64,000 bases of DNA from NCBI GenBank assembly GCA_022867325.1, contig JALHUR010000084.1, forward strand, positions 6,084 through 70,083, written 5' to 3'. Position numbers and translations under genes: made by a program. The notes under the pieces are model-generated. The model made no database searches and was not told the DNA's origin. It saw only the letters and a program-made list of their open reading frames with translations. Source of the stretch: Candidatus Aminicenantes bacterium (lineage in GTDB: Bacteria; Acidobacteriota; Aminicenantia; Aminicenantales; JAFGBC01). Position 1 is the stretch's first letter. Every line of letters begins with the position of its first letter. Below, in pieces: positions 8,935-47,875 of the stretch.

Positions 8935-10092
8935 CTACTTCGCGTCCCGGACGGGGCCGACCACTTCGTGGGCGATGACCAGGCGCTGAATCTCGTTCGT
9001 TCCCTCGTAGATCTGGAGAAGCTTCGCGTCCCGCATCAGCTTCTCCATCGGATAGTCTTTCATATAGCCGTACCCTCCGCAAATTTGAAGGGCTTCGGTC
9101 GTCGTCCGCATGGCCACGTCGCTGGCAAAGCACTTGGCCATGGCCGATTCTTTCCCGCAGGGTTTTCCCCGGTCCATCAGCCAGGCCGCGTTCCAGACGA
9201 GATGGCGGGCCGCGTTGATCTCCATGGCCATCTGGGCGATCTTGAGCTGGTTGGCCTGGAAAAGGGCGATCGCTTTCCCGAACTGGACCCGTTTCTTGGC
9301 GTACTCGACGGCATAGTCGAGCGCCGCCCGGGCGACCCCGACTCCGGCCGCCCCGACCGGGGCCCGTGTGTTGTCGAGCGTCTTCATGGCGACCATGAAT
9401 CCCAAGCCTTCCCGCCCCAGCAGGTTCGCCCGCGGAACCCGAACGTCGTCGAAGAAGACCTCGGCCGTGTTCGAGGCCCGGTGACCCATCTTGTCCTCGA
9501 CCTTTCCGACCGAGACTCCGGGCGTGTCGCGCGGGACGATGACGGCGCTGATTCCCCGCTTGCCCTTGCCGGGCGCGGTCAGGGCGAAGACGACGTAGAG
9601 GTCGGCGATCCCGCCGTTGGTGATGAAGCACTTGGACCCGTTGATGACGAAATCGGAGCCGTCCTTGAGGGCCCGGCTCTTGAGGCCGCCCGCGTCCGAA
9701 CCGGCTTCCCGCTCGGTCAGGCAGAAGGAGGCGAACGTCATCTTGCGGGTCGCGGGCGCCAGGAAGCGCTTTTTCTGTTCGGGCGAACCGAACAGGATGA
9801 GCGGCGTGTAGGCCAGGGAATTGGCCATGATCGTCGTGTACATGCCCGCGCAGCCGGCCGCCAGCTCTTCGCTGACGATGACCGTGTCGACGTTGCCCAG
9901 CTCTCCCCCGCCGTACTCGGCCGGAATGTTGCAGGTCATGAAGCCCGCCTCGAAAGCTTTCTGGAAGACGTCGGTCGGCGTCTCGTGGCCTTGATCGTAC
10001 TTGGCCGCCTTGGGTTTCATCTCTTTTTCGGCGAACTCGCGGGCCATTTCACGAAGGGCCAGCTGTTCTTCGGACAAGCTGAAATCAATCAT
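8935..10092 (-). CDS. acyl-CoA dehydrogenase
   Basis: 385 aa. Full-length ACAD similarity (MIDFSLSEEQLALREMAREFAEKEM ... YEGTNEIQRLVIA). Confidence 0.9.
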   Translation of the reverse strand: MIDFSLSEEQLALREMAREFAEKEMKPKAAKYDQGHETPTDVFQKAFEAGFMTCNIPAEYGGGELGNVDTVIVSEELAAGCAGMYTTIMANSLAYTPLILFGSPEQKKRFLAPATRKMTFASFCLTEREAGSDAGGLKSRALKDGSDFVINGSKCFITNGGIADLYVVFALTAPGKGKRGISAVIVPRDTPGVSVGKVEDKMGHRASNTAEVFFDDVRVPRANLLGREGLGFMVAMKTLDNTRAPVGAAGVGVARAALDYAVEYAKKRVQFGKAIALFQANQLKIAQMAMEINAARHLVWNAAWLMDRGKPCGKESAMAKCFASDVAMRTTTEALQICGGYGYMKDYPMEKLMRDAKLLQIYEGTNEIQRLVIAHEVVGPVRDAK

Positions 10093-12844
10093 TGTCTTTT
10101 CCTCTCCCGGGGCTCGGACGTTCGCCGAGACGTTGACCTTTTATACCCGAATCGAGAATCTCTGTCAAACCCTCGACTCCCCGGCCTGAAGGCCGGGGCT
10201 TGGTCAGGGTTGACCCTGAGCCGCCCTTTTCGTCCCCGCCTTGAAAGGAGGGGCTTAGCGTCGGCGAACGGGTCAATTTGGCCGTTTCCCCGCGCGGCGC
10301 GGCGGGGAGCACGGGCAGGAACCGGACTTCCTCACGGGCCATATCGTAGACCTGGTCCTCGAGGTTCAGGAGCTCGAAGACGACATCCTGGGGCCTGGGC
10401 GCTTTGCCGGGGCCTTGCGGGATGATCAGGACGAGGATCCGGGGAGGGCCCGACATTCGAATTTGGAGTCCGGACTCTCCTCCCTTGTCCTCGAGAAAGC
10501 GCCGGATCAGGGCGGAGAGCCTGTCGGCAAAGGAACCGTCCGGGATTTCTTTCCGGGCGCAGGCCGTCCGGACCGCTTCTTCCGCTTCGGGTCGATCAAG
10601 ATTCAGCGAATAGACCATGGAATGGACCGCCCGGGATAAAGGCGGCTCCGAATCGGCTAAAAGCCTAAGCTCAAGAAAACGGACGCCCTCCGGGGCCGAT
10701 GCGTTGAGGCGAACGATCGTCTCTTGGGCGGAGAGGGCGGTCCTGGATTTGAGCTCCAGGCAATCCTTTTTGGCCTCCATCCCCAGGGGAAGCGCGGGGA
10801 GAAACGAGACGATCATTTTGGGATGGAACCCTTCGGACATGGCGACCGAAAGGCCGGCCCTCCGGAATATTCTCTGGAGGACGTTGATGAGATCGAGATG
10901 GGACATGAAACGCGCCCGTCCTCCCTTTGAGTAAAAAAGACGGTAGCGAAGAGGCTGGGCGGAATCGCGGCCGAGACGAGGGAAAGGCTCTTCTCGATCG
11001 CCGGCCTCCCCTTCCTCGGAGGACCTGTCCAGGAAAGCGGGCAAGTCGCAGCCCCGGCAGTCGGCGCAAGTCCTTTCCAGACAGGACGGGGTCCTCTCCT
11101 CCGCCATGGCCCTGTCGAGCTCGCCTTGCAGGAATTCTTTCCTGACGCCGGTGTCGATATGGTCCCAGGGCAATAAGGCGTCGCGGTCCAGGGCGCCGAG
11201 ATAATCTCCTTTCTCGATGCCCGACGACATGAAGGCCTGCTCCCAACAGCGGGCCTGGAAACGGTCCTTCCAGCCGTCAAAACGGGCTCCATTCTCCCAG
11301 GCCGCCCTGAGAAGACGGGAGACCGCCCGATCTCCTCGCGAGAGTACCGCTTCCAGCACGGATTTCTCAACCGGATGGTCCTTGAAATCGATGAAACGGA
11401 ACCTTTTCAAACGATCCTTGAGGAAAGCCTGTTTTTCAAGGAGAGTCTCCGGTCCGTCCATGGCCTGCCATTGGAAGGGCGTATGCGGTTTAGGTATGAA
11501 TGAGGAGACGCTGAGGTTGAAGCGCGGCGGCGAATGGAGGATCGATCGGCCTTCCTCGACGAGGGCCTTGACGAGATCGACGATTGCAACCAGGTCTTCG
11601 TCCCGCTCCGTCGGCAGCCCGATCATGAAATAGAGCTTGAGAAGCCTCCAGCCATGGCGGAAAGCGCTCCGGGCCGCTTCGAAGATGTCGGCATCGTCGA
11701 GGTGCTTGTTAATGACCCGGCGCAACCTCTCGGTCCCGGCCTCGGGGACCAGGGTCAGGCCGGTCTTACGGACCGTGAGGATGCTCCGGACGATTTCGGT
11801 CGAGACGCCCTTGGGCCTCAATGACGACAGGGAGAGTGAAATCTTATCGGGCTCGAGCTCGGCCATGGCTTTCTTGATCAAACCGTCGAGGCCGGGATAG
11901 TCGCTCAGGGAAAGGGCGGTCAGGGACGCGTCTTCGTAGCCTGTCGCCCGCAGGCTTTTTTTCATCGTATTGAGGATGAACGCCCGGCTTTTGACCCGGA
12001 AGGGATGGTAGAGGGTTGTGGCCTGGCAGAACCTGCATTTATGGGGGCAGCCGCGGGCCGCCTCGACCGCGACGCGGTCGAATACGGCTTTAATGTTGGG
12101 GACGACGATGTCCTCCGGGAAATAAGACTCCCGGAACGACCGAACGATTCTTTTCTTTATGCGGGAAGGTTCCCCCGGCCCGGCCTTAACGGCCAGGAGT
12201 CTTGAGCGGTCCGGCCGATAGGTCTCGTAGAGGGACGGGACATAAACGCCGGGAATCCCGGCCAAATCCTTGAGAATCCGGCCCCTGTCTTGGGCGGCCC
12301 CTTTGAGCTCGATCAGCCGTTCGACGATTTCCGGGAATGCCTCCTCGCCGTCGCCGATCAGGAAGAGGTCGAAGAAATCCGCGACGGGCTCGGGATTGAA
12401 GGCGGACGGGCCGCCGGCGATGACGAGAGGATGGTTTCCGGTCCGGTTCGCCGCGAGAAGGGGGATCCGGCCCAAATCGAGCATGGTCAGGATGTTCGTC
12501 GCGTTGAGCTCGTAGAGGAGCGAAAAGCCCACGATGTCGAACCGGCCGAGCGGAGTGGCCGTCTCCAGCGAGAAGAGCGGAAGATCCCGCGCCCGGAGCT
12601 CGGCCTCGCAATCCGGCCAGGGCGCGAAGACGCGTTCGGCCTGGATATGGGGACGGTTGTTGAGGATGGCGTAGAGGATCTTCTGCCCCAGATACGACAT
12701 GCCGATTTCATAAACGTCGGGAAAGGCGAGCGCGACCCTGGCCCTGACGGCGGCCGGATCCTTGCGGCGGGCGTTCCATTCCCCTCCCGTGTAGCGGGCC
12801 GGCTTCTCGACCCGGCGCAGGACCCGGTCCAGGCCGTCAGACAT
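10085..12844 (-). CDS. B12-binding radical SAM protein (TIGR03960 family) fused to DUF2344 (TIGR03936)
   Basis: 919 aa with radical SAM Cys cluster AARGCPHKCRFCQ, followed by a DUF2344-like C-terminal half. The last about 65 codons read through repeat copy A1. 8-nt overlaps with rodA upstream and ACAD downstream. Confidence 0.8.
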   Translation of the reverse strand: MSDGLDRVLRRVEKPARYTGGEWNARRKDPAAVRARVALAFPDVYEIGMSYLGQKILYAILNNRPHIQAERVFAPWPDCEAELRARDLPLFSLETATPLGRFDIVGFSLLYELNATNILTMLDLGRIPLLAANRTGNHPLVIAGGPSAFNPEPVADFFDLFLIGDGEEAFPEIVERLIELKGAAQDRGRILKDLAGIPGVYVPSLYETYRPDRSRLLAVKAGPGEPSRIKKRIVRSFRESYFPEDIVVPNIKAVFDRVAVEAARGCPHKCRFCQATTLYHPFRVKSRAFILNTMKKSLRATGYEDASLTALSLSDYPGLDGLIKKAMAELEPDKISLSLSSLRPKGVSTEIVRSILTVRKTGLTLVPEAGTERLRRVINKHLDDADIFEAARSAFRHGWRLLKLYFMIGLPTERDEDLVAIVDLVKALVEEGRSILHSPPRFNLSVSSFIPKPHTPFQWQAMDGPETLLEKQAFLKDRLKRFRFIDFKDHPVEKSVLEAVLSRGDRAVSRLLRAAWENGARFDGWKDRFQARCWEQAFMSSGIEKGDYLGALDRDALLPWDHIDTGVRKEFLQGELDRAMAEERTPSCLERTCADCRGCDLPAFLDRSSEEGEAGDREEPFPRLGRDSAQPLRYRLFYSKGGRARFMSHLDLINVLQRIFRRAGLSVAMSEGFHPKMIVSFLPALPLGMEAKKDCLELKSRTALSAQETIVRLNASAPEGVRFLELRLLADSEPPLSRAVHSMVYSLNLDRPEAEEAVRTACARKEIPDGSFADRLSALIRRFLEDKGGESGLQIRMSGPPRILVLIIPQGPGKAPRPQDVVFELLNLEDQVYDMAREEVRFLPVLPAAPRGETAKLTRSPTLSPSFQGGDEKGGSGSTLTKPRPSGRGVEGLTEILDSGIKGQRLGERPSPGRGKDND
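10133..10168 (-). promoter_or_regulatory. putative internal promoter TTGACA-17-TATAAA for the acyl-CoA dehydrogenase gene; the -35 lies at the edge of repeat A1
   Basis: Minus strand: ggtTTGACAgagattctcgattcgggTATAAAagg, about 40 nt upstream of ACAD ATG at 10092. Confidence 0.35.
10181..10290 (-). repeat. palindromic mosaic repeat, family A copy 1 (minus orientation)
   Basis: Minus strand reads ttgacccgttcgccgacgcta...ggcggggacgaaaag...gctcagggtcaaccctga...ccccggccttcaggccgggg...gggtttgaca. Homologous to copies at 28880-29109 and 45287-45350. Confidence 0.7.
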
Positions 12845-18145: not shown

Positions 18146-18305
18146 GTTAAACCTGCCGTCCGTACCCGACTATTACTAACACAATTCGTCCCGGGACGCA
18201 ATCGGAAACCGGACGCGCGGCCGGGGGGTAGAGGGGTTGACACGTTCGCCGAGCCTCAGTGTTACCCCTGGACAAGCCTTGGCACTTATGCCGGCGGTCG
18301 AGGGG

Positions 18306-18335
18306 TTGACTTTGGACAGGGAAATTGAATATAAA
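18306..18335 (+). promoter_or_regulatory. putative sigma-70 promoter TTGACT-18-TATAAA for the OPT transporter gene
   Basis: ggggTTGACTttggacagggaaattgaaTATAAAttatg. AAAGGAG RBS before ATG 18367. Confidence 0.4.
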
Positions 18336-20470: not shown

Positions 20471-20502
20471 GTTGATTCGGGATCGCGCCGGCCCGCCCGG
20501 GT

Positions 20503-20531
20503 TTGACCGCCTTCAGGGCATCGTCTAAAAT
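20503..20531 (+). promoter_or_regulatory. putative promoter TTGACC-17-TAAAAT for def-fmt
   Basis: cccgggtTTGACCgccttcagggcatcgtcTAAAATag, 19 nt before def ATG. Confidence 0.45.
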
Positions 20532-28727: not shown

Positions 28728-28792
28728 CGGTCCAGCCCCTGGGCAGAAGGCTGAATCGTCCCCCCCGGGTGGGGCGCTCCAGCCGCTCGGAA

Positions 28793-28827
28793 AGCCGGTG
28801 ATAGGAATCTATCACCGGCTTTTTTTT
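28793..28827 (+). terminator. rho-independent terminator after mdh
   Basis: agccggtgatag-gaat-ctatcaccggct followed by T7-9. Confidence 0.7.
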
Positions 28828-28879
28828 GGGCCGCGACCCCCCCCATACGCTTTTCGCCGACCGTGTCCGGCCCGTCAAA

Positions 28880-29109
28880 GCTCCTCCCGGTTGACGGACC
28901 GGATGCGAATTTGACCCGTTCGCCGACGCTACCCCGCCCTGAAAGGCGGGGACGAGAAGCGACACTTTTGTACTCAGCCCCTTGAGAGGAGATGGGGCTG
29001 AGTGGGCTCAGGGTTAACCCTGAGCAAGCCCCGCCTTGCAGTACTCAAGGAGCCGAAACAACGGCTCCTTGGGTGCCGGCATTCATGCCGGGGCGTCGAT
29101 GGGTTGACA
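28880..29109 (+). repeat. palindromic mosaic repeat, family A copy 2 (longest copy, with an extra internal hairpin module)
   Basis: ...cggttgacggaccggatgcgaatttgacccgttcgccgacgctaccccgccctgaaaggcggggacgagaagcgac[ctcagcccc..ggggctgag]ggctcagggttaaccctgag...ccggcattcatgccggggcgtcgatgggTTGACA. Confidence 0.7.
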
Positions 29110-29132
29110 CCTGCATGCGGCCGGGCGATAAT
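29104..29132 (+). promoter_or_regulatory. sigma-70 promoter TTGACA-17-GATAAT for the MBL-fold gene; the -35 hexamer is the terminal motif of repeat A2
   Basis: gggTTGACAcctgcatgcggccgggcGATAATcg, 40 nt before ATG 29172. Confidence 0.45.
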
Positions 29133-29171
29133 CGACAATAAGAGATGTTCATCTCATCAAGGAGACCGTTC

Positions 29172-30050
29172 ATGAAACGCCTTCCAACCTTCATTTTCGC
29201 CATCAGCATGATCGTGACGGCCGGGCTCATCCCCGCCCTGCAGGCGGGAGGCCAGACGCCCCCGCCCCTCGCGGCTCAAGTCATCAAGCCCGGGCTCTAT
29301 TGGGTCGAGGGCGGAGCCGGCGCCAACACGGGCTTCTGGATCGGCAAGGACGCGGTCGTGGTCATCGACGCCAAGATGACTCCGGACGCGGCGCGCGAAA
29401 TGCTGGCCAAGATCAAGGAGCTGACACCGAATCCGGTCCAGTCTATCGTTTTAACCCACAGCGACGGCGACCATGTCAACGGATTGACCGGCTTTCCCCA
29501 AGGGCTCAAAATCGTGAGCCAGGAGACGTGCAAGACGGAACTCGAAGCGGCTTTCACGGATCCGGCCCTTCGCGCCTATCTGCCCACGGTCACTTTCAAG
29601 GACCGGATGGACCTTCTCCTTCCGGGAGGATCCATCCGGCTTCTCCATTTCGGCTCGGCCCACACCAGCGGAGACGCGATCGTTCTCTTCCCCGCCGAAA
29701 AAGTCGCGTTCATAGGGGATCTCGCCTTCATCGGGAGGGATCCCTTGATTCACAAAAGCAAGGGCGGGACATCGTTCGGATTGACCGCAACCTTGAAGTC
29801 CATCCTGGCGCTCGAGGCCGACACCTTCATCCCCGGTCACGGCAAACCCCTGGCCAAATCCGACATCGAGGGACTTCTCAAGAGCGTCGAGGACAAGCAG
29901 GCTCAAGTCAAGGACATGGTCGCCCGGGGGAAGTCCTTGGATGAGGTCAAGAAAGCGTTCGGCATCGAGGAGGAGACGGCGCAGCCGGGACGCCGGCGTT
30001 GGCCGAGCCTGGTCGAGGTCATTTATCTCGATCTGACGGAGAAAAAATAA
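29172..30050 (+). CDS. secreted MBL-fold metallo-hydrolase
   Basis: AGGAGA RBS. Signal peptide MKRLPTFIFAISMIVTAGLIPALQA. Metallo-beta-lactamase motif LTHSDGDHVNG plus HTSGD and PGHG. Confidence 0.8.
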   Translation: MKRLPTFIFAISMIVTAGLIPALQAGGQTPPPLAAQVIKPGLYWVEGGAGANTGFWIGKDAVVVIDAKMTPDAAREMLAKIKELTPNPVQSIVLTHSDGDHVNGLTGFPQGLKIVSQETCKTELEAAFTDPALRAYLPTVTFKDRMDLLLPGGSIRLLHFGSAHTSGDAIVLFPAEKVAFIGDLAFIGRDPLIHKSKGGTSFGLTATLKSILALEADTFIPGHGKPLAKSDIEGLLKSVEDKQAQVKDMVARGKSLDEVKKAFGIEEETAQPGRRRWPSLVEVIYLDLTEKK

Positions 30051-33038: not shown

Positions 33039-33243
33039 GCTGATGGGTGCGCTCGATCCGTTGACGGACGGCGAATCCCCTCCGCGCCATTCCACGGACG
33101 TCAGTCCGTGGAGGGATAGCGTATCGTCGCTTCGGGGACAGGCAGCGGTTTCGCAGTACTCATGAACCGGAAACGGTTCATGGGTGCGCTCCACCGCCTT
33201 CGACGGGCAGATCCCCGGACGTAAGTTCGTGGAGCTTCAGTCC
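33039..33243 (+). repeat. palindromic mosaic repeat, family B copy 1 (tandem units bounded by ccacggacgtNagtccgtgg hairpins)
   Basis: Begins 5 nt after the DUF5107 stop. Contains atgggtgcgctc modules, gaaccgGAAAcggttc and ccacggacgtcagtccgtggag / ccccggacgtaagttcgtggagcttcagt. Confidence 0.7.
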
Positions 33244-41645: not shown

Positions 41646-41808
41646 TAATCCCCTTCGAGGGATTCCACGGACGTTAGTCCATGGAGGAACCCCCTTTCGG
41701 GGGCTGGCAGCGATTTTGCAGTGCCCTTGAACCGGAAACGGTTCGTGTGCGCGCTCCGACGCCTGCAAAGGGTAGATCCCATGGACGTAAGTCCGTGGAG
41801 CTTCAGTA
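41646..41808 (+). repeat. palindromic mosaic repeat, family B copy 2
   Basis: Begins 14 nt after the GWxTD1 stop. attccacggacgttagtccatggag ... gaaccgGAAAcggttc ... gcgcgctccgacgcctgcaaagggtagatcccatggacGTAAgtccgtggagcttcagt. Confidence 0.7.
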
Positions 41809-41914
41809 GATGTTCCAAGATTCATTTAATTGGATAAATACATTTTTTTGTATTTCGTTCCCCCCAACGTTTTCCTAAACTATTGAATATATTTAAATTA
41901 TCTTTCCAATTTTT

Positions 41915-41930
41915 TGGCATGAATATTGCT
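41915..41930 (+). promoter_or_regulatory. sigma-54 (RpoN) -24/-12 promoter TGGCAT-N5-TTGCT inside a 300-bp AT-rich island upstream of the TBDR-like gene
   Basis: ttTGGCATgaataTTGCTtaaa matches the TGGCAC-N5-TTGCW spacing exactly. Lies about 190 nt upstream of ATG 42120. Local GC is far below the window average. Confidence 0.4.
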
Positions 41931-42119
41931 TAAATAGATTTGGAAAGAAATGTTTAGGAACTATGAGAGAGGAGGTGAAACAAGCGGGGAATTAACTAAT
42001 CTGGTCAAAGGTTGGAGCGGTTCATTGCAGCCGCTCCTGGTGGGGGGAAAAACGAGTTTTGCTTCTATCCTCAATCCACCGATTGGGAAAGAAGGGTGAA
42101 AAAGGAGAATTTCCAGAGA

Positions 42120-45100
42120 ATGCGTAAATCATGGACTTTAGCTTTGCTTGCGCTCCTCCTGGTCGCCGGATTCGCTTCAGCCCAGGGCCGCCCTGAAGGC
42201 AAGTTCGTCGGCAAAGTCAGCGACGATCAGGGCAACCCGCTCCCCGGCGTCACGGTCGAGGCGATAAGCCCCAAACTGGTCGGTAAAGCGGCGACGGTCA
42301 CGGATCAGACCGGAACCTTCCGGCTGTTCCAGCTGCCTTCCGGGCTGTATGAAATCAACTTCACCCTGCCCGGGTTCAAAACGATGTCCCGTAAGGACGT
42401 CGTCCTGCAGCTGTCGCAGACCGTGACCCTCAACATCACGATGGAGCCGTCCACTCTCGAAGAGACGGTGACCGTCATCGGGATGAGCCCCCTGATCGAC
42501 GTCAAGAGCACGGTCAAGGGCCAGACTATGACGCGGGAAGTGTTCATGAAGCTTCCCAAGAGCCGGAACTTCGACGGCCTGCTGAGCACGGTCCCCGGCG
42601 TTCAGTATGACAACGTCGGAGGCGGCCTGCTGGTCGACGGCGCCACCGGTACCGAGAACATGTGGTACATGGACGGCGCCGACGTCACCCAGCCGCATAT
42701 CGGAACCCGGGCCCAGAGCGTGGTCATGGAGATCATCGAGGAGGTCAAGGTTACGGCCTCCGGGTACAATGCCGAGTTCGGCGGCTCGATGGGCGGCGTC
42801 GTCAACGTCGTCACCCGTTCGGGCGGCAACGCCTTCCACGGCGATGCCATCGGCTATTACGAGGGCAACAGCCGGCTGATGCAAGGCAAAGCCCGCGATT
42901 ACGGCCGCTGGAATCCCTACGACGACGAGATCTATGAGTACGTCAACGAAGACGACCTTTATTTTGACGGCGGCAAGAAGCGGGATGTCTATAATCGCTT
43001 CGAGGGCGTCTTCAACCTGGGCGGCTATATCATGCGGGACAAGCTGTGGTTCTTCGCCTCCTTCAACCCCCAGTACAGCCACCAGACGTTCGACCGGTAC
43101 TTCCTGAGCGAACAGGGCAAGCCGATTCATCAATTCAGGAGAAATTGGAACTGGTGGAACGGCCAGGTCAAGGTAACGGCGGCCCCGCTGGCCGGGATGC
43201 GCTTGAGCGCCAGCTTCGTCAACAATTTTTCCAAGTACAGAGGCGGGGGCAATAACGATCGTAGCGCGAACGGGATGCCGAGCCTCGCCGGCACGAGCAA
43301 CGCCACCTACAAATGGGACCAAGAAGGCTATGACTATCCCAACTGGAGCGCGGCCTTCCTGCTGGACTACAGCATCAGCAACTCCCTGCTGCTGAGCATG
43401 CGCGGCGGCTACCACATGCAGGACACGGCGAACCAGCAGATCAAGAACGACTTCACCACCTATTATTTCAACCAAAGCAACTACGGCTATAAGAGCGACC
43501 CGTTCTTCATTGCGAATCCCAATCTGCTCGGCTACGCCGGAACCGCCAACTATGGCGGCAGCACCATGATCACCGAACGCTACAAATTGGAGAAGTACTC
43601 CGGCAACTTCGACCTGTCCTACTATCTCAACCTGGCCGGCGATCACGCCTGGAAGGCCGGCCTGCAGTGGATCCGCGACGCGGAAGACGTCTTCAACGGC
43701 CGTCCCAAGCCTATGGTCAACATCTATTGGGGCCGCGGATACTACGGCCTGGCCAGCGGCGAGCCCGTTCTGGGCACCTACGGCCATTACGAGATCCGGA
43801 GCGGCTGGACGTCGCCCTACGGCTATGTCTGGAAAATTCAAAGAGACAGCTGGTCCCTCTATCTCCAGGATTCCTGGACGATCGGCAACAAGCTGACCGT
43901 CAACGCCGGTCTCCGGACCGAAAGCGAGTACATCCCGGCCTTCACCGCCGACACGGCCCTGGTAGGCTACCAGGCCAAACCCATCAAGTTCGGTTTCGAC
44001 AAGAAGCTGGCTCCCCGCCTCGGCGCCGTCTATGACGTCTTCGGCGATTCCACCCTGAAGATTTTCGGCAGCTTCGGAATCTACTACGACGTCATGAAGC
44101 TGTACATGGCCGAGGGCGCCTTCGGCGGCTTCAAGTGGAAAACCGACTATTACGAGCTGAACAACCCGAACTACCTCCTGATCGCGGCCAGCGGAACTCT
44201 GGATGATCGGGCCAGTCAGGAAGCGGGTGGACGGTACGTCGGCACCATGGATTGGCGCATCCCCTCCTGGGACACGACCGATCCCGACATGCTGCCCGTC
44301 TCCCAGAGAGAAATCTCGTTGGGCGCCGAGTACAAGCTCGCCGAGAACGTTTCCCTGTCGGCCCGCCTGGTCCAGAAGCACCTCATGCGGACGATCGAGG
44401 ACATCGGAGTCCTGACGCCGGCAGGCGAGATGTACTACAACGCCAATCCCGGTTTCGGGTGGTCTCGCAGCATCAAGAACGGCGGGAAGTTCGACGACAT
44501 GTACTGGGAGTGTCCCAAGGCCACGAGAGAGTACTACGGAATGAACCTCTCTCTCGAAAAGCGGTTCAGCAACAACTGGCAGGGCGGCGTCAACTACACC
44601 CTGAGCCGCGTCGCCGGCAATTACGGCGGCCTGTCGTCCCCCGACGAGGTCAACCGGAACTCCCCGAACGTCGAGCGCTATTTCGACCTCTGGTTCATGG
44701 CCTATGATCTGAAGGGCAATGTCCTCGACGGCCCGCTGCCCCAGGACAGAAGCCACTACGTCAAGGCCTACGGCTCCTACGCCTTCCCGTTCGGGCTGAC
44801 GGTCGGCGTCGTCGGCTATGCCAGAAGCGGCATGCCGTTGACAACCGAGCTCTTTGCCAACAACGTCTCGGGATATTATCCCAACCAGCGCGGCGACCTC
44901 GGCCGCGCGCCCTGGACGGTCTGGGCCGACGTGTACATGGAATACACGTTGAACCTCGGCCGGAACACCCTCAACTTCAACGTCCAGATAAACAACATCA
45001 CCAACACCAAGACGTGGCAGTGGTACAACAACCGCATCAACAGACTCTCCATGCGCATCACCGACGAGGAGATCCTGAGCAAGACGTTCGACTGGCAGTC

Positions 45101-45197
45101 CAGGGTCGCCGACTACTGGCCCAACGCTTCGTTCAACAAGCCGAGCTGGCAGTTCGGAACCTGGTCGGCCCGCGTCGGCACCCGGTTCTCGTTCTAA
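42120..45197 (+). CDS. TonB-dependent receptor-like outer membrane protein with N-terminal carboxypeptidase-regulatory-like domain
   Basis: AAGGAG RBS and signal peptide MRKSWTLALLALLLVAGFASAQG. CarbopepD_reg-like block GKVSDDQGNPLPGVTVEAISP...TGTFRLFQLPSGLYEINFTLPGFK. Plug-like region, then about 1025 aa barrel ending ...VGTRFSF. Confidence 0.75.
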   Translation: MRKSWTLALLALLLVAGFASAQGRPEGKFVGKVSDDQGNPLPGVTVEAISPKLVGKAATVTDQTGTFRLFQLPSGLYEINFTLPGFKTMSRKDVVLQLSQTVTLNITMEPSTLEETVTVIGMSPLIDVKSTVKGQTMTREVFMKLPKSRNFDGLLSTVPGVQYDNVGGGLLVDGATGTENMWYMDGADVTQPHIGTRAQSVVMEIIEEVKVTASGYNAEFGGSMGGVVNVVTRSGGNAFHGDAIGYYEGNSRLMQGKARDYGRWNPYDDEIYEYVNEDDLYFDGGKKRDVYNRFEGVFNLGGYIMRDKLWFFASFNPQYSHQTFDRYFLSEQGKPIHQFRRNWNWWNGQVKVTAAPLAGMRLSASFVNNFSKYRGGGNNDRSANGMPSLAGTSNATYKWDQEGYDYPNWSAAFLLDYSISNSLLLSMRGGYHMQDTANQQIKNDFTTYYFNQSNYGYKSDPFFIANPNLLGYAGTANYGGSTMITERYKLEKYSGNFDLSYYLNLAGDHAWKAGLQWIRDAEDVFNGRPKPMVNIYWGRGYYGLASGEPVLGTYGHYEIRSGWTSPYGYVWKIQRDSWSLYLQDSWTIGNKLTVNAGLRTESEYIPAFTADTALVGYQAKPIKFGFDKKLAPRLGAVYDVFGDSTLKIFGSFGIYYDVMKLYMAEGAFGGFKWKTDYYELNNPNYLLIAASGTLDDRASQEAGGRYVGTMDWRIPSWDTTDPDMLPVSQREISLGAEYKLAENVSLSARLVQKHLMRTIEDIGVLTPAGEMYYNANPGFGWSRSIKNGGKFDDMYWECPKATREYYGMNLSLEKRFSNNWQGGVNYTLSRVAGNYGGLSSPDEVNRNSPNVERYFDLWFMAYDLKGNVLDGPLPQDRSHYVKAYGSYAFPFGLTVGVVGYARSGMPLTTELFANNVSGYYPNQRGDLGRAPWTVWADVYMEYTLNLGRNTLNFNVQINNITNTKTWQWYNNRINRLSMRITDEEILSKTFDWQSRVADYWPNASFNKPSWQFGTWSARVGTRFSF

Positions 45198-45273: not shown

Positions 45274-45286
45274 GTCGTCTCTTTCA

Positions 45287-45424
45287 CCCGTTCGCCGACG
45301 CTACGCCGCCCTGAAAGGCGGGGACGAGAAGCGAGGCTCAGGGTTAACTTCCGCGCTTCGGGGACAGGCGCTCCAACACCTGCAAAGGGCAGATCCCACG
45401 GACGTAAGTCCGTGGAGCTTCAGT
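45287..45424 (+). repeat. composite repeat: family A copy 3 fused to a short family B copy 3
   Basis: cacccgttcgccgacgctacgccgccctgaaaggcggggacgagaagcgaggctcagggttaac | ttccgcgcttcggggacaggcgctccaacacctgcaaagggcagatcccacggacGTAAgtccgtggagcttcagt. Confidence 0.7.
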
Positions 45425-45557
45425 TCGCTTGTTTCAGATTGCCGATTAGTAGCGAGAATCAGCGGGAGCCTCAAGGGGGTATAATTTTCGGCTACCGCAA
45501 AATTTAAAACGCTTCCCGCTGACGACCTATCTCATTGATATAAAATAAGATATGATT

Positions 45558-45596
45558 AAAGAAAACCGAGGAATCGAAAACGATCTCGGTCCGATC
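45558..45596 (-). terminator. putative terminator for the minus-strand sulfatase/TPR/GWxTD operon
   Basis: Minus strand: ccgagatcgttttcgattcctcgg followed by ttttctttaat. Confidence 0.35.
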
Positions 45597-45616
45597 TTAG
45601 CTGAAGCCCTCTTCCT

Positions 45617-47875
45617 TCACTTAGAGGGATTAGCTTCAAGCCTCTGAAGTTCGGCCCGGGCGGCCCGGATGCTCTTTTCAGGCTCGCCCCGCGGATCGTC
45701 CAGGTATAATTTCAGATAACGGACGGCCTCTCCGAAATCGCCCGTCTTACGGTAAGCGGTCGAAAGGTTATAATAAGCGGTAGGCGTGGGTTTCAGATAA
45801 ACGGCCTGTTTCAGGCTCTCGATCGACTTGGCGTAATCGCCGGAAAAGCCGTAGGCGATGCCCAAATACTGGAATAGGACCTGATCCTCCGGATAATCCA
45901 GGGTGAGCTCCTCGTAAGTCTCGATCGCTCGGTCGAGCCGTCCGCTCGAAGCCAGGTTGTTGGCGTAGCTCATGCGCAGGTACTTGTTTTCGGGCTCGAT
46001 GGCAATGGCCCGCTCGTAGAACGACCGCGCTTCGTCCTTGCGCCGCAGCGTATCCAGGACTCCGGCCGTGACCGTCAAGGCGTCCACATTCTTGGGGTTG
46101 ATCCTCAGAACCTCGGCCATCGTATCCAGCGCTTCTCCGAGGCGGTTGGTGACGAGATAGGTGTGCCCGAGTCGGGCCAGCAGGATCTCCGAGCCGGGGA
46201 TTTTTTTTATACCCGATTTCAGGGTTTGAACGGCCTCGTCGAATTTACCCCGGCGCGCCCGGCTCAGGGCCAGGTTGACGTAGGACGCCGGCGCGTCGGG
46301 AATGAGGTCCAGGAGTCGCTCATAGACGGCGGCCGCTTCGGCGTATCGCCCCTGGAATTCGAATCCCTCGGCCTGTTGAGTCAGACGCAGGACATCGGTT
46401 TTATCCTTGGGGTCGGGATAGGACGCGCGGGCGCCTCCGTCCGAGAAACTCGTGTATCCCAGCGAACGCAGGCGCTCCTGGACCTCGGCCGAGGGGGTTC
46501 GCCCCCCGGCCGACGCCAAGCCGGCGCCCGCCTTGACCAGCTCCTCCAGACGGGCATTCAGGTCCGAGGCCCGTTTGGCCGCCGAGGCGATGAGATTCCT
46601 GTTCTCGCCGGGATCGGCCGCCAAGTTGTAGAGCTCGGGCTTGGGAGCCCGGATGAACTTCCAATCCCCCCGGACCAGTCCGACGAGCTCCGACCAACCG
46701 TAGTTCTCCCTGGGATAGAAAGTTTCCAGATAAATGTCCAGGTCCTCGCGGCTTCGTCCCTCGATCGCGGGAATCAGGCTCTCCCCGGTCGTTCCGGCCG
46801 GCGCGGGAATTTCCAGGATATCCAGGATGGAAGGCATGATATCGATCAGCCGGACCCGGGATTTGACGACGGCCCGGGGAGGGATGCGATGATCGGCCAG
46901 GATTATCAGGGGGACCCGCATCGTCCCGTCATAGATAAAGATACCGTGCCCGGTCTCGACCTTCTCCCCGAAGGCCTCCCCGTGGTCTCCGGCCAGAACG
47001 ATCAGGGTCTTGTCCCGCAGCCCCTTCTCGGCGAGCTTGTCGACGACCCGGCCGACGTGAAAATCCATGAAAGCGACCTCTCCATCGTAGGGATCGGCGG
47101 CGAACTCCTCGCTGTAGGGCGGGGGGGGCTGGTAAGGAAGATGGGGGTCGAAAAAATGGACCCAAGCGAAAAATTGCGCATCGGCGTTCCGATCGAGCCA
47201 GCTCGAAAAAACGGCGCTGATCTGATCCGCTTTCCGCTCGGAGTTCAGCGGCTTGAAGGGAAGTCCGGTCTGAAAATTGTCGTCGTAGACGTCGAATCCC
47301 TGGCCGAGCCCGAACCTGGAATCGACCGAGAAGGAGGCTACAAAGGCGGCGGTCCGGAACCCCGCATTCTTAAGGACTTCGGCCAAGGTCTCCCACCCGG
47401 TCGCAAGCTCGTAGCTGCCGTTGTTGTGAACGCCGTGGGAGACCGGCGTCAACCCGGTCATGATCGAGCAATGCGAGGGGAGGGTCAGCGGAGCCGGGCA
47501 ATAGACGTTTTCAAACCGGACTCCCTTTCCGGCCAGACCGTCGATGTTCGGGGTCCTGCCCTTGGAATATCCGTAACAGCCGAGCCGGTCGGCCCGGGTT
47601 GTGTCCAGAGTGATGAGCAAAACGTTCAGCCGACCGTCCTTTTGGATTCGGGTCCGGCCGCCGGGACTGAAAACCACGAAAAGCGCTGCCGCCAGAGCCA
47701 TCACTCCGACGGCGATGAACGGGAGTTTCGAGACCGGGCGTTTTCGGGCCTCTCTCCCGCCGGCGAGCCGGGGAGCGGCCGGACCCGAGCGGCCGACCTG
47801 CGGACACGGCGCGCCGCTGGGATTGGGATCCGTCCGGCTCCTTCCGCGGCGGCGGGAGCGTCTTTTTTTTCCCAT
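45617..47875 (-). CDS. sulfatase-like hydrolase/transferase (alkaline-phosphatase superfamily) fused to C-terminal TPR repeats, N-terminal membrane anchor
   Basis: 752 aa. TM segment LPFIAVGVMALAAALFVVF. AP-superfamily core (LLITLDTTRADRLGCYGY...DHGE). No canonical CxPxR sulfatase motif. TPR-like C-terminal third. Confidence 0.7.
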   Translation of the reverse strand: MGKKRRSRRRGRSRTDPNPSGAPCPQVGRSGPAAPRLAGGREARKRPVSKLPFIAVGVMALAAALFVVFSPGGRTRIQKDGRLNVLLITLDTTRADRLGCYGYSKGRTPNIDGLAGKGVRFENVYCPAPLTLPSHCSIMTGLTPVSHGVHNNGSYELATGWETLAEVLKNAGFRTAAFVASFSVDSRFGLGQGFDVYDDNFQTGLPFKPLNSERKADQISAVFSSWLDRNADAQFFAWVHFFDPHLPYQPPPPYSEEFAADPYDGEVAFMDFHVGRVVDKLAEKGLRDKTLIVLAGDHGEAFGEKVETGHGIFIYDGTMRVPLIILADHRIPPRAVVKSRVRLIDIMPSILDILEIPAPAGTTGESLIPAIEGRSREDLDIYLETFYPRENYGWSELVGLVRGDWKFIRAPKPELYNLAADPGENRNLIASAAKRASDLNARLEELVKAGAGLASAGGRTPSAEVQERLRSLGYTSFSDGGARASYPDPKDKTDVLRLTQQAEGFEFQGRYAEAAAVYERLLDLIPDAPASYVNLALSRARRGKFDEAVQTLKSGIKKIPGSEILLARLGHTYLVTNRLGEALDTMAEVLRINPKNVDALTVTAGVLDTLRRKDEARSFYERAIAIEPENKYLRMSYANNLASSGRLDRAIETYEELTLDYPEDQVLFQYLGIAYGFSGDYAKSIESLKQAVYLKPTPTAYYNLSTAYRKTGDFGEAVRYLKLYLDDPRGEPEKSIRAARAELQRLEANPSK

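What the first reader, a model, noticed from the sequence alone, without database searches (positions are those of the whole stretch)
29085..29135. Repeat ends donate -35 hexamers: element-terminal gtcgaNgggTTGACA precedes -10 boxes of ACAD and MBL genes
Repeats A1 and A2 both terminate in ccggcNttcaNgccggggNgtcgaNggg(t)TTGACA. In both cases the non-repeat flank 17 nt further on carries a good -10 box: TATAAA for the acyl-CoA dehydrogenase and GATAAT for the MBL hydrolase. The result is hybrid promoters aimed at the downstream gene, reminiscent of IS-borne outward -35 boxes. The same G-rich extended -35 (gaggggTTGAC) occurs twice in tandem upstream of the OPT transporter gene (18223-18241 and 18290-18311), and once upstream of def (cccgggTTTGACC, 20494-20508). 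This may reflect a lineage-specific extended -35/UP-like motif or a transcription-factor site that the repeats have captured or spread.
Basis: seen in the sequence. Interest (0 to 1): 0.6.

Follow-up and report, generated by a model that had tools for sequence, protein, structure and literature searches.

The report
Mobile repeat that rebuilds promoter -35 boxes
A roughly 110-base mobile hairpin repeat, found in two phyla of uncultured anaerobic bacteria, inserts into the TTGAC "-35" box of promoters that already exist and ends in its own TTGAC, so it rebuilds the promoter rather than creating a new one.

Summary
Repeats A1 (10164-10276, minus) and A2 (28911-29108, plus) both end in ...GCCGGGGnGTCGAnGGnTTGAC. 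The next base plus 17 nt leads to TATAAA (ACAD) or GATAAT (MBL).

The motif is the 3' end of a canonical 113-nt element with two hairpins. It occurs in many copies in Aminicenantes MAGs and in Syntrophaceae/Thermodesulfobacteriota MAGs. Homology stops exactly after TTGAC, and the element is also preceded by TTGAC.

Across 60 copies, -10-like boxes peak 16-18 nt downstream. TANNNT occurs at 10-13% per position there, against about 1-2% elsewhere.

Empty sites settle the interpretation:
- A metagenome contig with a 97%-identical ACAD has ...caaaTTGACAgagattctcgattcgggTATAAA..., lacking exactly the 108-nt insert.
- MBL and OPT orthologues also carry intact TTGACA-N17/18-TAnnnN promoters without the element.

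So the promoters came first. The element inserts at TTGAC and restores the -35. It does not create hybrid promoters, and the G-rich "extended -35" is simply the element's end. The def site is an ordinary promoter.

The geometry matches IS608: TTGAC, 18 nt, hairpin ... hairpin, 10 nt, TTGAC. This suggests an IS200/IS605-type non-autonomous element, but no transposase was found.

The parts
10164..10276 (-). A1: canonical 113-nt copy. It is a 108-nt insert plus the duplicated TTGAC. Layout: TTGAC, 18 nt, hairpin 1 (CCCCTCC/GGCGGGG), central GGGTCAACCC, hairpin 2 (CCCCGGCC/GGCCGGGG), 10 nt, TTGAC.
   Evidence: 123 bits, model positions 1-113. The insert is absent from L126, whose flanks join exactly at a single TTGACA.
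10272..10276 (-). Left TTGAC of A1. This copy of the target pentamer is displaced 108 nt upstream of the -10.
10163..10168 (-). Rebuilt -35 hexamer TTGACA of the ACAD promoter. TTGAC is the element's end; A is the original flank.
10140..10145 (-). -10 box TATAAA of the ACAD promoter, 17 nt after the -35, in unique flank DNA.
   Evidence: It sits at the same position as TAnnnT/A in ACAD orthologues. It fails the scan tool's final-T rule.
8935..10092 (-). Acyl-CoA dehydrogenase gene served by that promoter.
28911..29108 (+). A2: 198-nt copy of the same element, with the same head and the same tail. It is enlarged by nested hairpin modules.
   Evidence: Absent between mdh and MBL in OY969696.1 (L063), and absent upstream of MBL in L065.
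28963..29005 (+). Extra hairpin module nested inside A2 (ACTCAGCCCC...GGGGCTGAGT).
   Evidence: Comparison with the canonical copy. The same module is present in L064 and in the third element copy in L010.
29034..29078 (+). 45-nt hairpin module (CCTTGCAGTACTCA...TGGGTGCCG) nested in the 5' arm of hairpin 2 of A2.
   Evidence: The same module type interrupts hairpin 1 in L056.
29104..29109 (+). Rebuilt -35 hexamer TTGACA of the MBL promoter.
   Evidence: 11/12 consensus match. The orthologous empty promoter in L065 is TTGACA-N17-CATAAT.
29127..29132 (+). -10 box GATAAT of the MBL promoter.
29172..30050 (+). MBL-fold hydrolase gene. The start is taken at the ATG preceded by aaggag.
18220..18241 (+). 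Remnant resembling an element 3' end (GCCGGGGGGTAGAGGGGTTGAC). Its TTGAC served as the target for the next insertion.
18242..18310 (+). Short 69-nt copy that lacks hairpin 1, ending in GGTCGAGGGGTTGAC.
   Evidence: 49.6 bits. It has the same architecture as the 75-nt copies in L010 and L035. It is absent from L193-195.
18306..18335 (+). OPT promoter: TTGACT, 18 nt, TATAAA. The OPT ATG is at 18367.
   Evidence: The empty orthologue is TTGACA-N18-TATACA.
45283..45365 (+). A3: the head half of the element (TTCACCCGTTCGCCGACGC, hairpin 1, GGGTTAAC), fused to a different repeat family (B). It has no TTGAC tail.
   Evidence: 44.8 bits.

Best explanation
The motif is the right end of a small, non-coding, mobile element. 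The canonical form is 108 nt, or 113 nt counting both TTGACs.

Shown:
- The element integrates at the pentanucleotide TTGAC.
- After insertion it is bracketed by TTGAC on both sides. The left copy stays with the old upstream DNA. The right copy, which ends the element, is joined to the original sixth base, spacer and -10.
- Because TTGAC is the conserved core of the sigma-70 -35 hexamer, surviving insertions are concentrated in promoters. Each such insertion regenerates the -35 it split. The promoters pre-exist, and the element is close to neutral for them. DNA upstream of -35 is moved about 110 nt away.
- The same element can sit in-frame inside genes, as 36 codons in the frame xTG ACC.

Inferred:
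- It is a non-autonomous IS200/IS605-type element (PATE-like), moved as single-stranded DNA by a Y1 HUH transposase supplied in trans.
- TTGAC would serve both as the target (TAM) on the left and as the terminal cleavage motif (TEM) on the right.
- The two similar subterminal hairpins would be the transposase binding sites.
For: (1) Sharp boundaries and copy number. In 58 genuine hits from Aminicenantes and Syntrophaceae/Thermodesulfobacteriota MAGs, homology ends exactly after TTGAC and begins at TTGAC. The modal length is 113 nt, and copies within one MAG are identical.

(2) Precise empty site. L126 (ACAD 97% identical) has caaaTTGACAgagattctcgattcgggTATAAA. The window has caaaTTGAC[108 nt ...GGGTTTGAC]Agagattctcg....

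(3) Further empty sites:
- MBL in L065 (TTGACA-N17-CATAAT).
- OPT in L193-195.
- A2 and the B2 repeat are absent from the syntenic, 86%-identical OY969696.1.

(4) Independent, different insertions at the same OPT -35 in sister lineages: the window, L192 and L196.

(5) -10 boxes are enriched at spacer 16-18 after the element end. The base after TTGAC is A or T in 57/60.

(6) In-frame copies sit inside a sulfatase gene and an LpxR gene, and in the tail of ORF 10085-12844.

(7) IS608-like geometry. TTGAC lies 18 nt 5' of the hairpin 1 foot, and 10 nt 3' of the hairpin 2 foot. The documented IS608 distances are 19 and 10 nt. The two hairpins and their flanks are alike in the same orientation (AAG-CCCCGSC-loop-GSCGGGG-A..CGAG).

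(8) Known IS605 elements have near-identical TAM and TEM pentamers, and PATE derivatives. TTGAC has been computationally proposed as a TAM for one TnpB, but no editing was detected.

(9) The hairpins are conserved with compensatory changes: 95.6% paired, 6 pairs changed on both sides, 0-1 of 500 shuffles as good.

(10) The weak best Rfam similarities are to HgcC and sot0042, the UUCA-loop hairpin of IS1341-type right ends.
Against: - No transposase was found. There is no Y1 motif in 853 kb of fetched loci, and the ORFs next to tail-only copies are ordinary genes.
- The 5-nt repeat could equally be a target-site duplication made by a DDE enzyme.
- A short imperfect terminal inverted repeat exists (CCNTTCG / CGAAGGG, 5-6 of 7).
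- The exact cut is unresolved. A related 72-nt unit in L192 has left junction TTGCC and a 12-nt flanking repeat. Variant copies keep AC on the left and TTG on the right. This points to TTG^AC rather than TTGAC^.
- The GC-skew strand test is inconclusive.
- Roughly half of the copies have no recognisable -10.
- The ACAD and OPT -10 boxes are TATAAA, without the canonical final T.
- There are no transcription data.
- The -10 statistics come from copies selected with a pattern that required TTGAC.
Confidence: 0.62

Rival explanations
1. One reading: the repeat carries an outward-facing -35, and wherever it lands about 17 nt before a chance -10 it creates a new hybrid promoter that switches on the downstream gene, as with IS1, IS2 or ISAba1.
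For: The -35 is physically element DNA, and it is followed by -10 boxes in a third to a half of copies. Hybrid promoters from IS ends are well documented (review PMC9330008).
Against: Three independent empty sites show the same promoter, with the same spacer and -10, and no element. The ACAD promoter is conserved across dozens of orthologous loci that lack the element. Random insertion could not place a -10 at 16-18 nt in about 35-50% of copies.
Confidence: 0.07
2. GTCGAnGGGTTGAC is a lineage-specific extended -35, UP-like element or transcription-factor site that the repeats captured. It is used genome-wide, independently of the repeats.
For: G-rich sequence precedes TTGAC at the def promoter here and in OY969696.1.
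Against: - The motif is always the terminus of the element or of its remnants.
- The covariance model finds nothing at def.
- Empty ACAD promoters have A-rich, not G-rich, sequence upstream.
- The identical motif occurs in two phyla with different base composition.
- def shares only GGG plus TTGAC.
Confidence: 0.03
3. The biology is the same (a mobile element targeting TTGAC), but the element is a classical MITE moved by a DDE transposase. That enzyme would recognise short terminal inverted repeats and duplicate a 5-bp TTGAC target.
For: There is a direct TTGAC repeat on both sides. There is a short imperfect inverted repeat next to it: CC(A/G)TTCG ... CGA(A/G)GGG. Some DDE families make TSDs of a few bp (own knowledge).
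Against: - The inverted repeat is only 5-6 of 7 bp.
- The conserved subterminal hairpins and their flanks are in direct, not inverted, orientation.
- The left and right pentamers differ in 8 of 50 copies, with variation confined to different positions on each side.
- The L192 unit has TTGCC on the left and TTGAC on the right.
- Strict pentanucleotide specificity is unusual for DDE enzymes (own knowledge).
Confidence: 0.18
4. The element integrates as a small circle by conservative site-specific recombination (tyrosine, serine or DEDD recombinase; integron-attC-like or IS110-like). TTGAC would be the crossover core.
For: It is bracketed by identical cores. The sequence is a palindrome-rich folded structure resembling attC. 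Tandem head-to-tail copies share one core.
Against: Copies are scattered singly across housekeeping loci, not in cassette arrays. No integrase was seen in the fetched loci. The hairpin-to-core distances match IS608.
Confidence: 0.06
5. The repeat is a family of structured non-coding RNA genes or cis-regulatory leaders, and the promoter association reflects their own expression.
For: Conserved helices with compensatory changes and G-U pairs. PATE-derived RNAs are expressed in haloarchaea.
Against: - No Rfam family reaches threshold.
- The element lies upstream of the promoter it abuts, so it is not in the downstream transcript.
- Presence or absence varies between near-identical strains.
- Copies occur inside coding genes.
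- Internal modules come and go.
Confidence: 0.04

Closest known systems
Non-autonomous IS200/IS605 derivatives (PATEs), and the IS608/ISDra2/ISGst paradigm of single-strand 'peel and paste' transposition
   Same: - Short, protein-less, multi-copy elements.
- Two similar imperfect hairpins near both ends on the same strand.
- A fixed pentanucleotide immediately left of the element and a near-identical one as its last bases.
- Hairpin-to-motif distances of 18 and 10 nt, against 19 and 10 nt in IS608.
- TAM and TEM are almost the same in ISGst elements.
- ISDra2 uses TTGAT.
- The GC-rich UUCA-loop hairpin resembles IS1341-type right ends.
   Different: - No TnpA or TnpB partner was found.
- TAM and TEM would be identical, and equal to the -35 core, so insertion into a promoter is functionally scarless. 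This has not been described for this family, as far as the searched literature shows.
- The cut position may be TTG^AC.
- The hosts are Aminicenantes and Syntrophia-type bacteria.
IS elements with outward-facing -35 boxes that form hybrid promoters (IS1, IS2, IS257, ISAba1 and others; review PMC9330008)
   Same: The -35 hexamer lies in the terminal bases of a mobile element, and the -10 lies in the flanking DNA.
   Different: In those cases a new promoter is created and activates a silent or weak gene. Here the promoter existed before, and the element merely substitutes an identical -35. Those IS elements do not target -35 boxes.
Correia elements (CREE) of Neisseria, and other bacterial MITEs (ERIC, RUP, BOX, BIME/REP). 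Comparison from my own knowledge.
   Same: Small, abundant intergenic repeats with strong secondary structure, mosaic or modular composition, and effects on neighbouring promoters and transcripts.
   Different: Correia elements have 26-nt inverted repeats and a TA target duplication. REP/REPIN pairs are inverted and linked to RAYT genes. None is reported to home to TTGAC or -35.
Rickettsia palindromic elements (RPE). Comparison from my own knowledge.
   Same: Palindromic repeats that can sit in-frame inside protein-coding genes and be translated as an extra peptide. Here that is 36 residues, in a sulfatase, in LpxR and in the tail of ORF 10085-12844.
   Different: There is no evidence of sequence relatedness. 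RPEs are not associated with promoters or a TTGAC target.

Membership tests
IS200/IS605-derived non-autonomous element (PATE) | Subterminal imperfect hairpins at both ends, alike and in the same orientation on one strand | tested here: met
   AAG-CCCCGCC-UUUCAA-GGCGGGG-ACGAG and AAG-CCCCGGC-AUUCAU-GCCGGGG-AGUCGAG. The pairs are conserved, with compensatory changes.
IS200/IS605-derived non-autonomous element (PATE) | A conserved tetra- or pentanucleotide flanking the left end (TAM) and a similar one ending the right end (TEM), at fixed distances from the hairpins (IS608: 19 nt and 10 nt) | tested here: met
   TTGAC on the left in 42/50 copies and on the right in 49/50. The right-hand count is biased by the search pattern. 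Distances are 18 nt and 10 nt.
IS200/IS605-derived non-autonomous element (PATE) | No target-site duplication and no terminal inverted repeats | tested here: inconclusive
   The TTGAC...TTGAC bracket fits either TAM+TEM or a 5-bp TSD. Only a weak 5-6/7 inverted repeat is present.
IS200/IS605-derived non-autonomous element (PATE) | An autonomous relative with the same ends encoding a Y1 HUH TnpA (with or without TnpB) in the same genomes | not testable with these tools
   No Y1 motif in 853 kb of fetched loci. ORFs beside tail-only copies are not TnpB-like.
IS200/IS605-derived non-autonomous element (PATE) | Orientation bias relative to replication (top strand on the lagging-strand template) | tested here: inconclusive
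   Local GC skew is positive on the element strand in 9/22 Aminicenantes loci and 22/32 delta loci. This is a noisy proxy and is confounded with gene orientation.
IS200/IS605-derived non-autonomous element (PATE) | Similarity of the end hairpin to known right-end / omega-RNA-associated RNA families | tested here: inconclusive
   HgcC 15-20 bits (gathering score 50). sot0042 16.9 bits (gathering score 88). E is 0.01-0.5 in targeted searches. The similarity is restricted to the CCCCGCC-UUCA-GGCGGGG hairpin (context).
REP / REPIN mobilised by RAYT | Palindromic units of 20-40 nt with a conserved 5' GTAG-type tetranucleotide, typically paired in inverted orientation | tested here: not met
   The two hairpins and their flanks are in direct orientation, and there is no inverted doublet. 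The presence of RAYT was not testable.
DDE-type MITE | Terminal inverted repeats of about 10 bp or more, recognised by one transposase at both ends | tested here: not met
   Only CCNTTCG versus CGAAGGG (5-6 of 7), directly inside the TTGAC repeats.
IS-borne outward -35 forming a hybrid promoter | The element terminus carries a -35 facing outward, with the -10 in the flank | tested here: met
IS-borne outward -35 forming a hybrid promoter | The promoter owes its existence to the insertion (there is no promoter in the empty allele) | tested here: not met
   Empty alleles L126, L065 and L193-195 have complete TTGACA-N17/18-TAnnnN promoters.
Lineage-specific extended -35 / UP element / TF site | The motif occurs upstream of -35 boxes independently of the repeat | tested here: not met
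   None of 53 ACAD loci has the GTCGAnGG tail. The model does not match def. All motif instances sit at element ends.
Curated RNA family (Rfam 15) | A match at or above a family's gathering score | tested here: not met
   No matches in the window at gathering thresholds.
Integron gene-cassette attC site | Arrays of cassettes next to an integrase, with the crossover at G|TT of the core site | tested here: not met
   Copies are single and scattered between housekeeping genes in the window and in 60 loci.
In-frame palindromic elements (RPE-like behaviour) | The repeat is inserted in-frame within a conserved protein domain | tested here: met
   L040: the Sulfatase domain spans the insert. L046: the LpxR domain is split by it. 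This is a likeness of behaviour only; relatedness was not tested.

The most novel reading that the evidence does not exclude
This would be a previously undescribed family of promoter-homing selfish elements. Its integration site is the sigma-70 -35 core, and its terminus doubles as that core. On this reading the right half of the element (central stem plus UUCA hairpin plus GAGTCGAGGGGTTGAC) is a TnpB/omega-RNA-like scaffold. Its transcript would read into the promoter spacer as a guide. A trans-encoded RNA-guided nuclease, or a nuclease-dead TldR-like repressor, could then home to, defend or regulate individual promoters.
Probability: 0.07. Interest if true: 0.9.

Novelty: new variant of a known kind. 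Interest (0 to 1): 0.68.

Why it matters
It changes the reading of a common pattern. A "repeat end followed by a -10 box" may not mean that the repeat built the promoter. It can mean that the repeat uses the promoter's most conserved pentamer as a safe landing site and repairs it on arrival.

That would be a neat strategy for low-cost persistence of selfish DNA. It is comparable to Tn7 at attTn7, or to introns behind terminators.

It also has practical consequences:
- The elements mark real promoters in uncultured Aminicenantes and Syntrophia-type bacteria, for which no promoter maps exist.
- They displace upstream regulatory DNA by about 110 nt at many genes.
- They stack up as tandem or nested arrays at hot promoters.
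- They coincide with synteny breaks.
- They can be translated inside genes.

If the IS200/IS605 link holds, it predicts a TnpA, and possibly a TnpB, with TTGAC specificity.

Tried and rejected
- Rfam at gathering thresholds on the window: no matches. With E-value thresholds on element copies, only weak hairpin-level matches appeared.
- tRNA/tmRNA scan: none.
- Exact-protein look-up of the window's ACAD: not on record.
- Viral-contig scans. The tail motif gave 0 hits. The head motif gave 44 hits, none of which continues into the element. By my reading, many encode an LDPFGGAGT-like motif of DNA methyltransferases. I treat all 44 as chance or coding matches, not elements.
- Search for an autonomous copy. 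Every 'orphan' head in the loci turned out to have a variant tail. There was no Y1 HUH motif in 853 kb. ORFs abutting tail-only copies look like ordinary genes by eye, e.g. an oxidoreductase-like ORF.
- Searching the 36-aa element-encoded peptide against 5.8 billion proteins returned only 43 tiny hypothetical ORFs (42-80 aa). These are presumably miscalled on intergenic copies. There was no transposase.
- GC-skew test for replication-strand bias: inconclusive.
- Literature searches found nothing describing this element: TTGAC-targeting IS605, PATEs, MITE plus TTGACA, Aminicenantes repeats, and the literal end sequences.
- I considered a terminator or insulator role and set it aside: the hairpins lack a U-tract, and no terminator-like site was called.
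- I considered an integron attC site and set it aside: there are no arrays.
Full report
**1. The observation**

- On the plus strand, A2 ends ...ccggcattcatGCCGGGGcGTCGAtGGGTTGACA. TTGACA is at 29104-29109, followed by a 17-nt spacer and GATAAT at 29127-29132. The MBL start is most plausibly the ATG at 29172, behind aaggag.
- On the minus strand, A1 ends ...ccggccttcagGCCGGGGaGTCGAgGGTTTGACA (10168-10163), followed by 17 nt and TATAAA (10145-10140). The ACAD ATG is at 10092.
- Upstream of the OPT gene the same end sequence occurs twice, at 18228-18242 and 18297-18311. The second is followed by 18 nt and TATAAA.
- The def site (TTGACC 20503-20508, 17 nt, TAAAAT) also exists.
- The tool's strict consensus scan calls the MBL promoter (11 of 12). 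It does not call ACAD or OPT, because TATAAA lacks the final T it demands.

**2. What the motif belongs to**

I scanned one genome per species for GCCGGGGNGTCGANGGNTTGAC. Four of the 62 are coding-sequence chance matches.

The other 58 come from Candidatus Aminicenantes MAGs and from MAGs labelled delta proteobacterium, Syntrophaceae or Thermodesulfobacteriota. At least 14 copies are in the complete chromosome OY969696.1.

Lined up on the motif, all copies share about 90 further bases upstream and nothing downstream. Homology stops exactly after TTGAC. On the other side it starts at another TTGAC.

The modal unit is 113 nt including both pentamers:

TTGAC-CCGTTCGCCGACGCTAAG-[CCCCGCC TTTCAA GGCGGGG]-ACGAGAAGCGAGGCTCA-GGGTTAACCC-YGAGCAAG-[CCCCGGC ATTCAT GCCGGGG]-AGTCGAGGGG-TTGAC

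There is a distinct but clearly homologous subtype in the delta-type MAGs. Copies within one MAG can be identical (L017, L027 and L047 over the full 113-nt unit; L050 over the shared part shown), which indicates recent amplification.

The window's copies are:
- A1, canonical.
- A2, 198 nt, with the same head and tail plus nested extra hairpin modules.
- A 69-nt short form in front of OPT.
- A3, a head-only fragment fused to another repeat family.

A covariance model built from 23 distinct copies finds these and nothing else in the 64 kb. In particular it finds nothing at def.

**3. The -10 association generalises**

In 60 copies, TANNNT occurs at 10%, 13% and 13% of copies at spacers 16, 17 and 18. 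At other offsets it occurs at about 0-3%.

A -10 weight-matrix score of at least 4 bits at spacer 15-18 is seen in 19 of 60. In equally wide control windows further downstream it is seen in 1-3 of 60.

I also compared element ends with all other TTGAC[AT] sites in the same loci. These control sites themselves include real promoters.

| Cut-off (spacer 16-18) | Element ends | Other TTGACW sites | p |
|---|---|---|---|
| PWM >= 4 bits | 34% | 15% | 8e-4 |
| PWM >= 2 bits | 54% | 24% | 4e-6 |

The trend is the same in both phyla. The base after TTGAC is A in 22 copies, T in 35, C in 3 and G in none.

A crude longest-ORF test puts the downstream gene on the same strand in at least two thirds of cases. 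This underestimates the true figure in GC-rich DNA.

**4. Empty sites decide the interpretation**

ACAD. A metagenome scan with the ACAD protein returned 80 loci. L126, whose ACAD is 97% identical, reads:

...cgcgcggagaaacggacaaaTTGACAgagattctcgattcgggTATAAAaggtcaacg...

The window reads:

...cgcgcggggaaacggccaaaTTGAC[CCGTTCG...108 nt...GAGGGTTTGAC]AgagattctcgattcgggTATAAAaggtcaacg...

The difference is exactly the element, bracketed by one extra TTGAC. Of 53 ACAD loci with enough upstream sequence, 36 show TTGACN-N16-18-TAnnn[TA]. None has the element's tail. The promoter is therefore old and the insertion recent.

MBL. The orthologue in L065 (65% identity) has tatTTGACAggccgcccggcccgggcCATAAT with no element. 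The 86%-identical, syntenic OY969696.1 region lacks A2 altogether.

OPT. L193-195 (90% identity) have gtccTTGACAggagccggggaaattgaaTATACA. The other lineages differ at the same site:
- The window has the 69-nt short element behind that TTGAC.
- L192 (99% identity) has the same element plus a further 72-nt related unit.
- L196 (89% identity) has two tandem units of that related type.

Each arrangement still ends in GGGGTTGA(C/T)-T, then the spacer, then TATA(A/C)A.

Three promoters therefore predate the insertions. One of them has been hit repeatedly and independently.

**5.

The -35 in front of these genes is indeed element DNA. But the element did not create the promoter. It split an existing TTGACA and put back an identical TTGAC. 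What changes is everything upstream of -35. For example, the A-rich stretch before the ACAD -35 is replaced by GAGGGT, and the old upstream DNA moves 108-193 nt away.

The 'G-rich extended -35' is simply the last 15 nt of the element. It is absent from empty promoters.

The def promoter shares only GGG plus TTGAC. It is conserved as an ordinary promoter in OY969696.1 and is not matched by the element model.

**6. Insertions outside promoters**

Two copies in OY969696.1 lie inside genes, in-frame, in the open frame xTG ACC CGT...:
- One is within a Sulfatase domain (L040).
- One splits an LpxR domain (L046).

Each adds the peptide (L/M)TRSPT...RGVEGLT. The 108-nt insert equals 36 codons.

In the window, A1 itself lies in that same frame in the C-terminal tail of the stop-to-stop ORF 10085-12844. 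That ORF runs across the ACAD promoter.

A divergent copy in L114 sits between convergent genes, with junctions CTGAT... and ...GGGTTGGT.

Targeting is therefore to the short sequence, not to promoters as such. I infer that promoters dominate among survivors because intergenic TTGACs are mostly -35 boxes, and because insertion there is self-repairing.

**7. Mechanism**

Shown: site-specific integration at TTGAC, recent mobility, and regeneration of the -35.

Inferred: the enzyme. The anatomy matches the IS200/IS605 single-strand transposition paradigm better than any other.

- In IS608, the left cleavage motif lies outside the element, 19 nt 5' of the left hairpin's foot. The right motif is the element's last bases, 10 nt 3' of the right hairpin's foot. 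Guide bases lie just 5' of each hairpin. Here the distances are 18 and 10 nt.
- The two hairpins and their immediate flanks are alike in direct orientation.
- The bases 5' of both hairpins are YAAG/CAAG. These could pair with TT-G-(A)-C much as IS608's AAAG pairs with TTAC. This last point is my inference.
- ISDra2 targets TTGAT.
- ISGst elements have nearly identical left and right pentamers, and protein-less PATE derivatives.
- TTGAC has been computationally proposed as a TAM for one TnpB, although no editing was detected with it.
- The hairpins are supported by conservation and compensatory change: 95.6% of cells paired, six pairs changed on both sides, and 0-1 of 500 shuffles as good.
- The best sub-threshold Rfam similarities are to HgcC and sot0042. 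Their shared feature is the UUCA-loop hairpin of IS1341-type right ends.

**8. What speaks against, or remains open**

- No transposase was found. The fetched 853 kb contain no Y1 motif. ORFs next to tail-only copies are ordinary genes. A search with the element-encoded peptide returned only small miscalled ORFs. Whole genomes could not be scanned.
- The TTGAC bracket could be a 5-bp target duplication by a DDE enzyme, and a weak 7-bp inverted repeat flanks it.
- The exact phosphodiester is unresolved. The 72-nt unit in L192 has TTGCC at its left junction and a 12-nt flanking repeat, GTCGAGGGGTTG. In variant copies the left pentamer varies in its first three bases and the right one in its last two. 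This fits a cut at TTG^AC, with an element that begins with AC and ends with TTG. Alternatively, that unit arrived by recombination between shared ends.
- The replication-strand test by GC skew is inconclusive.
- About half of the copies lack a recognisable -10.
- No transcription data exist.

**9. Comparison and novelty**

The closest known things are PATE-type derivatives of IS200/IS605 (mechanistic likeness, membership unproven) and IS-borne outward -35 boxes. The latter give the same physical arrangement, but their defining feature, a promoter created by the insertion, was tested and not met.

I found no description of this element or of -35-targeted, -35-restoring insertion. I searched for TTGAC-targeting IS605, PATEs, MITE plus TTGACA, Aminicenantes repeats and the literal end sequences.

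I rate it a new variant of a known kind, with interest 0.68. My confidence that it is a mobile element inserting at TTGAC of pre-existing promoters and rebuilding the -35 is about 0.9. My confidence that it is mobilised by an IS200/IS605-type Y1 transposase is about 0.45.

Noticed in passing
window 33058-33240 (+), 41647-41807 (+), 45350-45424 (+); L063 13966-14102: A second hairpin-mosaic repeat family ('B'). Its ends look like AATCCCCTTCGAGGGATT-CCACGGACGTNAGTCCGTGG... and ...CCACGGACGTAAGTCCGTGGAGCTTCAGT. The 41647-41807 copy is absent from the syntenic OY969696.1 region. At the 33058 site, OY969696.1 carries a B-type element in the opposite orientation, between the same convergent genes.
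   Followed up: partly
window 29034-29078; L056 (element near 2555-2693, minus); L064 480-590: A hairpin module of about 45 nt (CCTTGCAGTACTCA-hairpin-TGGGTGCCG) is nested inside the 5' arm (after AAGCCCCG) of hairpin 2 in A2 and of hairpin 1 in L056. The same module type is a building block of the B repeats. It looks like a second-order parasite of the element's hairpins.
   Followed up: partly
L040 1339-1451; L046 5546-5658 (both OY969696.1); window 10164-10276 within ORF 10085-12844 (-): The 108-nt element is inserted in-frame (36 codons, peptide LTRSPT...RGVEGLT) inside a Sulfatase-domain gene and an LpxR gene. In the window it lies in the C-terminal tail of the ORF upstream of ACAD. This is reminiscent of Rickettsia palindromic elements.
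   Followed up: partly
L064 1-345 versus window 28728-28911: A contig whose MBL is 98% identical carries an A2-like element with different internal modules. Synteny with the window breaks exactly at the element's left end. The upstream neighbour is a divergent small gene instead of mdh. This suggests rearrangement at, or movement together with, the element.
   Followed up: no
L095 1310-1422 and L114 (same position upstream of ACAD): An unrelated 105-nt insert with its own inverted repeat (GCAATCGCGGC...GCCGCGATTAC) sits at the very same ACAD -35. It is flanked by an 11-nt direct repeat, AAATTGACAGG. Another kind of element has therefore also landed in this hexamer.
   Followed up: no
L192 about 7290-7530: In the 99%-identical relative, the mreB-OPT spacer also holds an insert of about 250 nt with terminal inverted repeats (CGTCGATCGGTTTTC ... 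GAAAACTGATCGACG). It is a conventional MITE and is absent from the window.
   Followed up: no
L192 7609-7680; L196 2800-2945: A related unit of about 70 nt (TTGCC-CCATSCGCAARNCSGATGGG...hairpin...GTCGAGGGGTTG) forms tandem arrays at the OPT -35. Its left junction reads TTGCC rather than TTGAC, which bears on where the strand is cut.
   Followed up: partly
L148-L191 (viral contigs): The element's first 19 nt (TTGACCCRTTCGNCGNCGC) coincide with DNA that, by my reading, encodes an LDPFGGAG-like motif of phage DNA methyltransferases in many of the hits. A head-motif scan of viral contigs therefore returns only coding matches. This is a trap for pattern searches.
   Followed up: yes
window 10150-10290 (-); L016 553-660 (-); L017 3468-3490 (-): The best sub-threshold Rfam similarities of the element are to HgcC (RF00062) and sot0042 (RF02656). 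A 2015 paper links these families through the UUCA-loop hairpin of IS1341-type transposon right ends.
   Followed up: partly
window 41810-42011 and 45430-45620: Two strikingly AT-rich intergenic stretches in an otherwise GC-rich window. The first is conserved in OY969696.1 (L063 20690-20888) and lies upstream of the large gene 42012-45197. Both directly follow B-type repeat ends.
   Followed up: no
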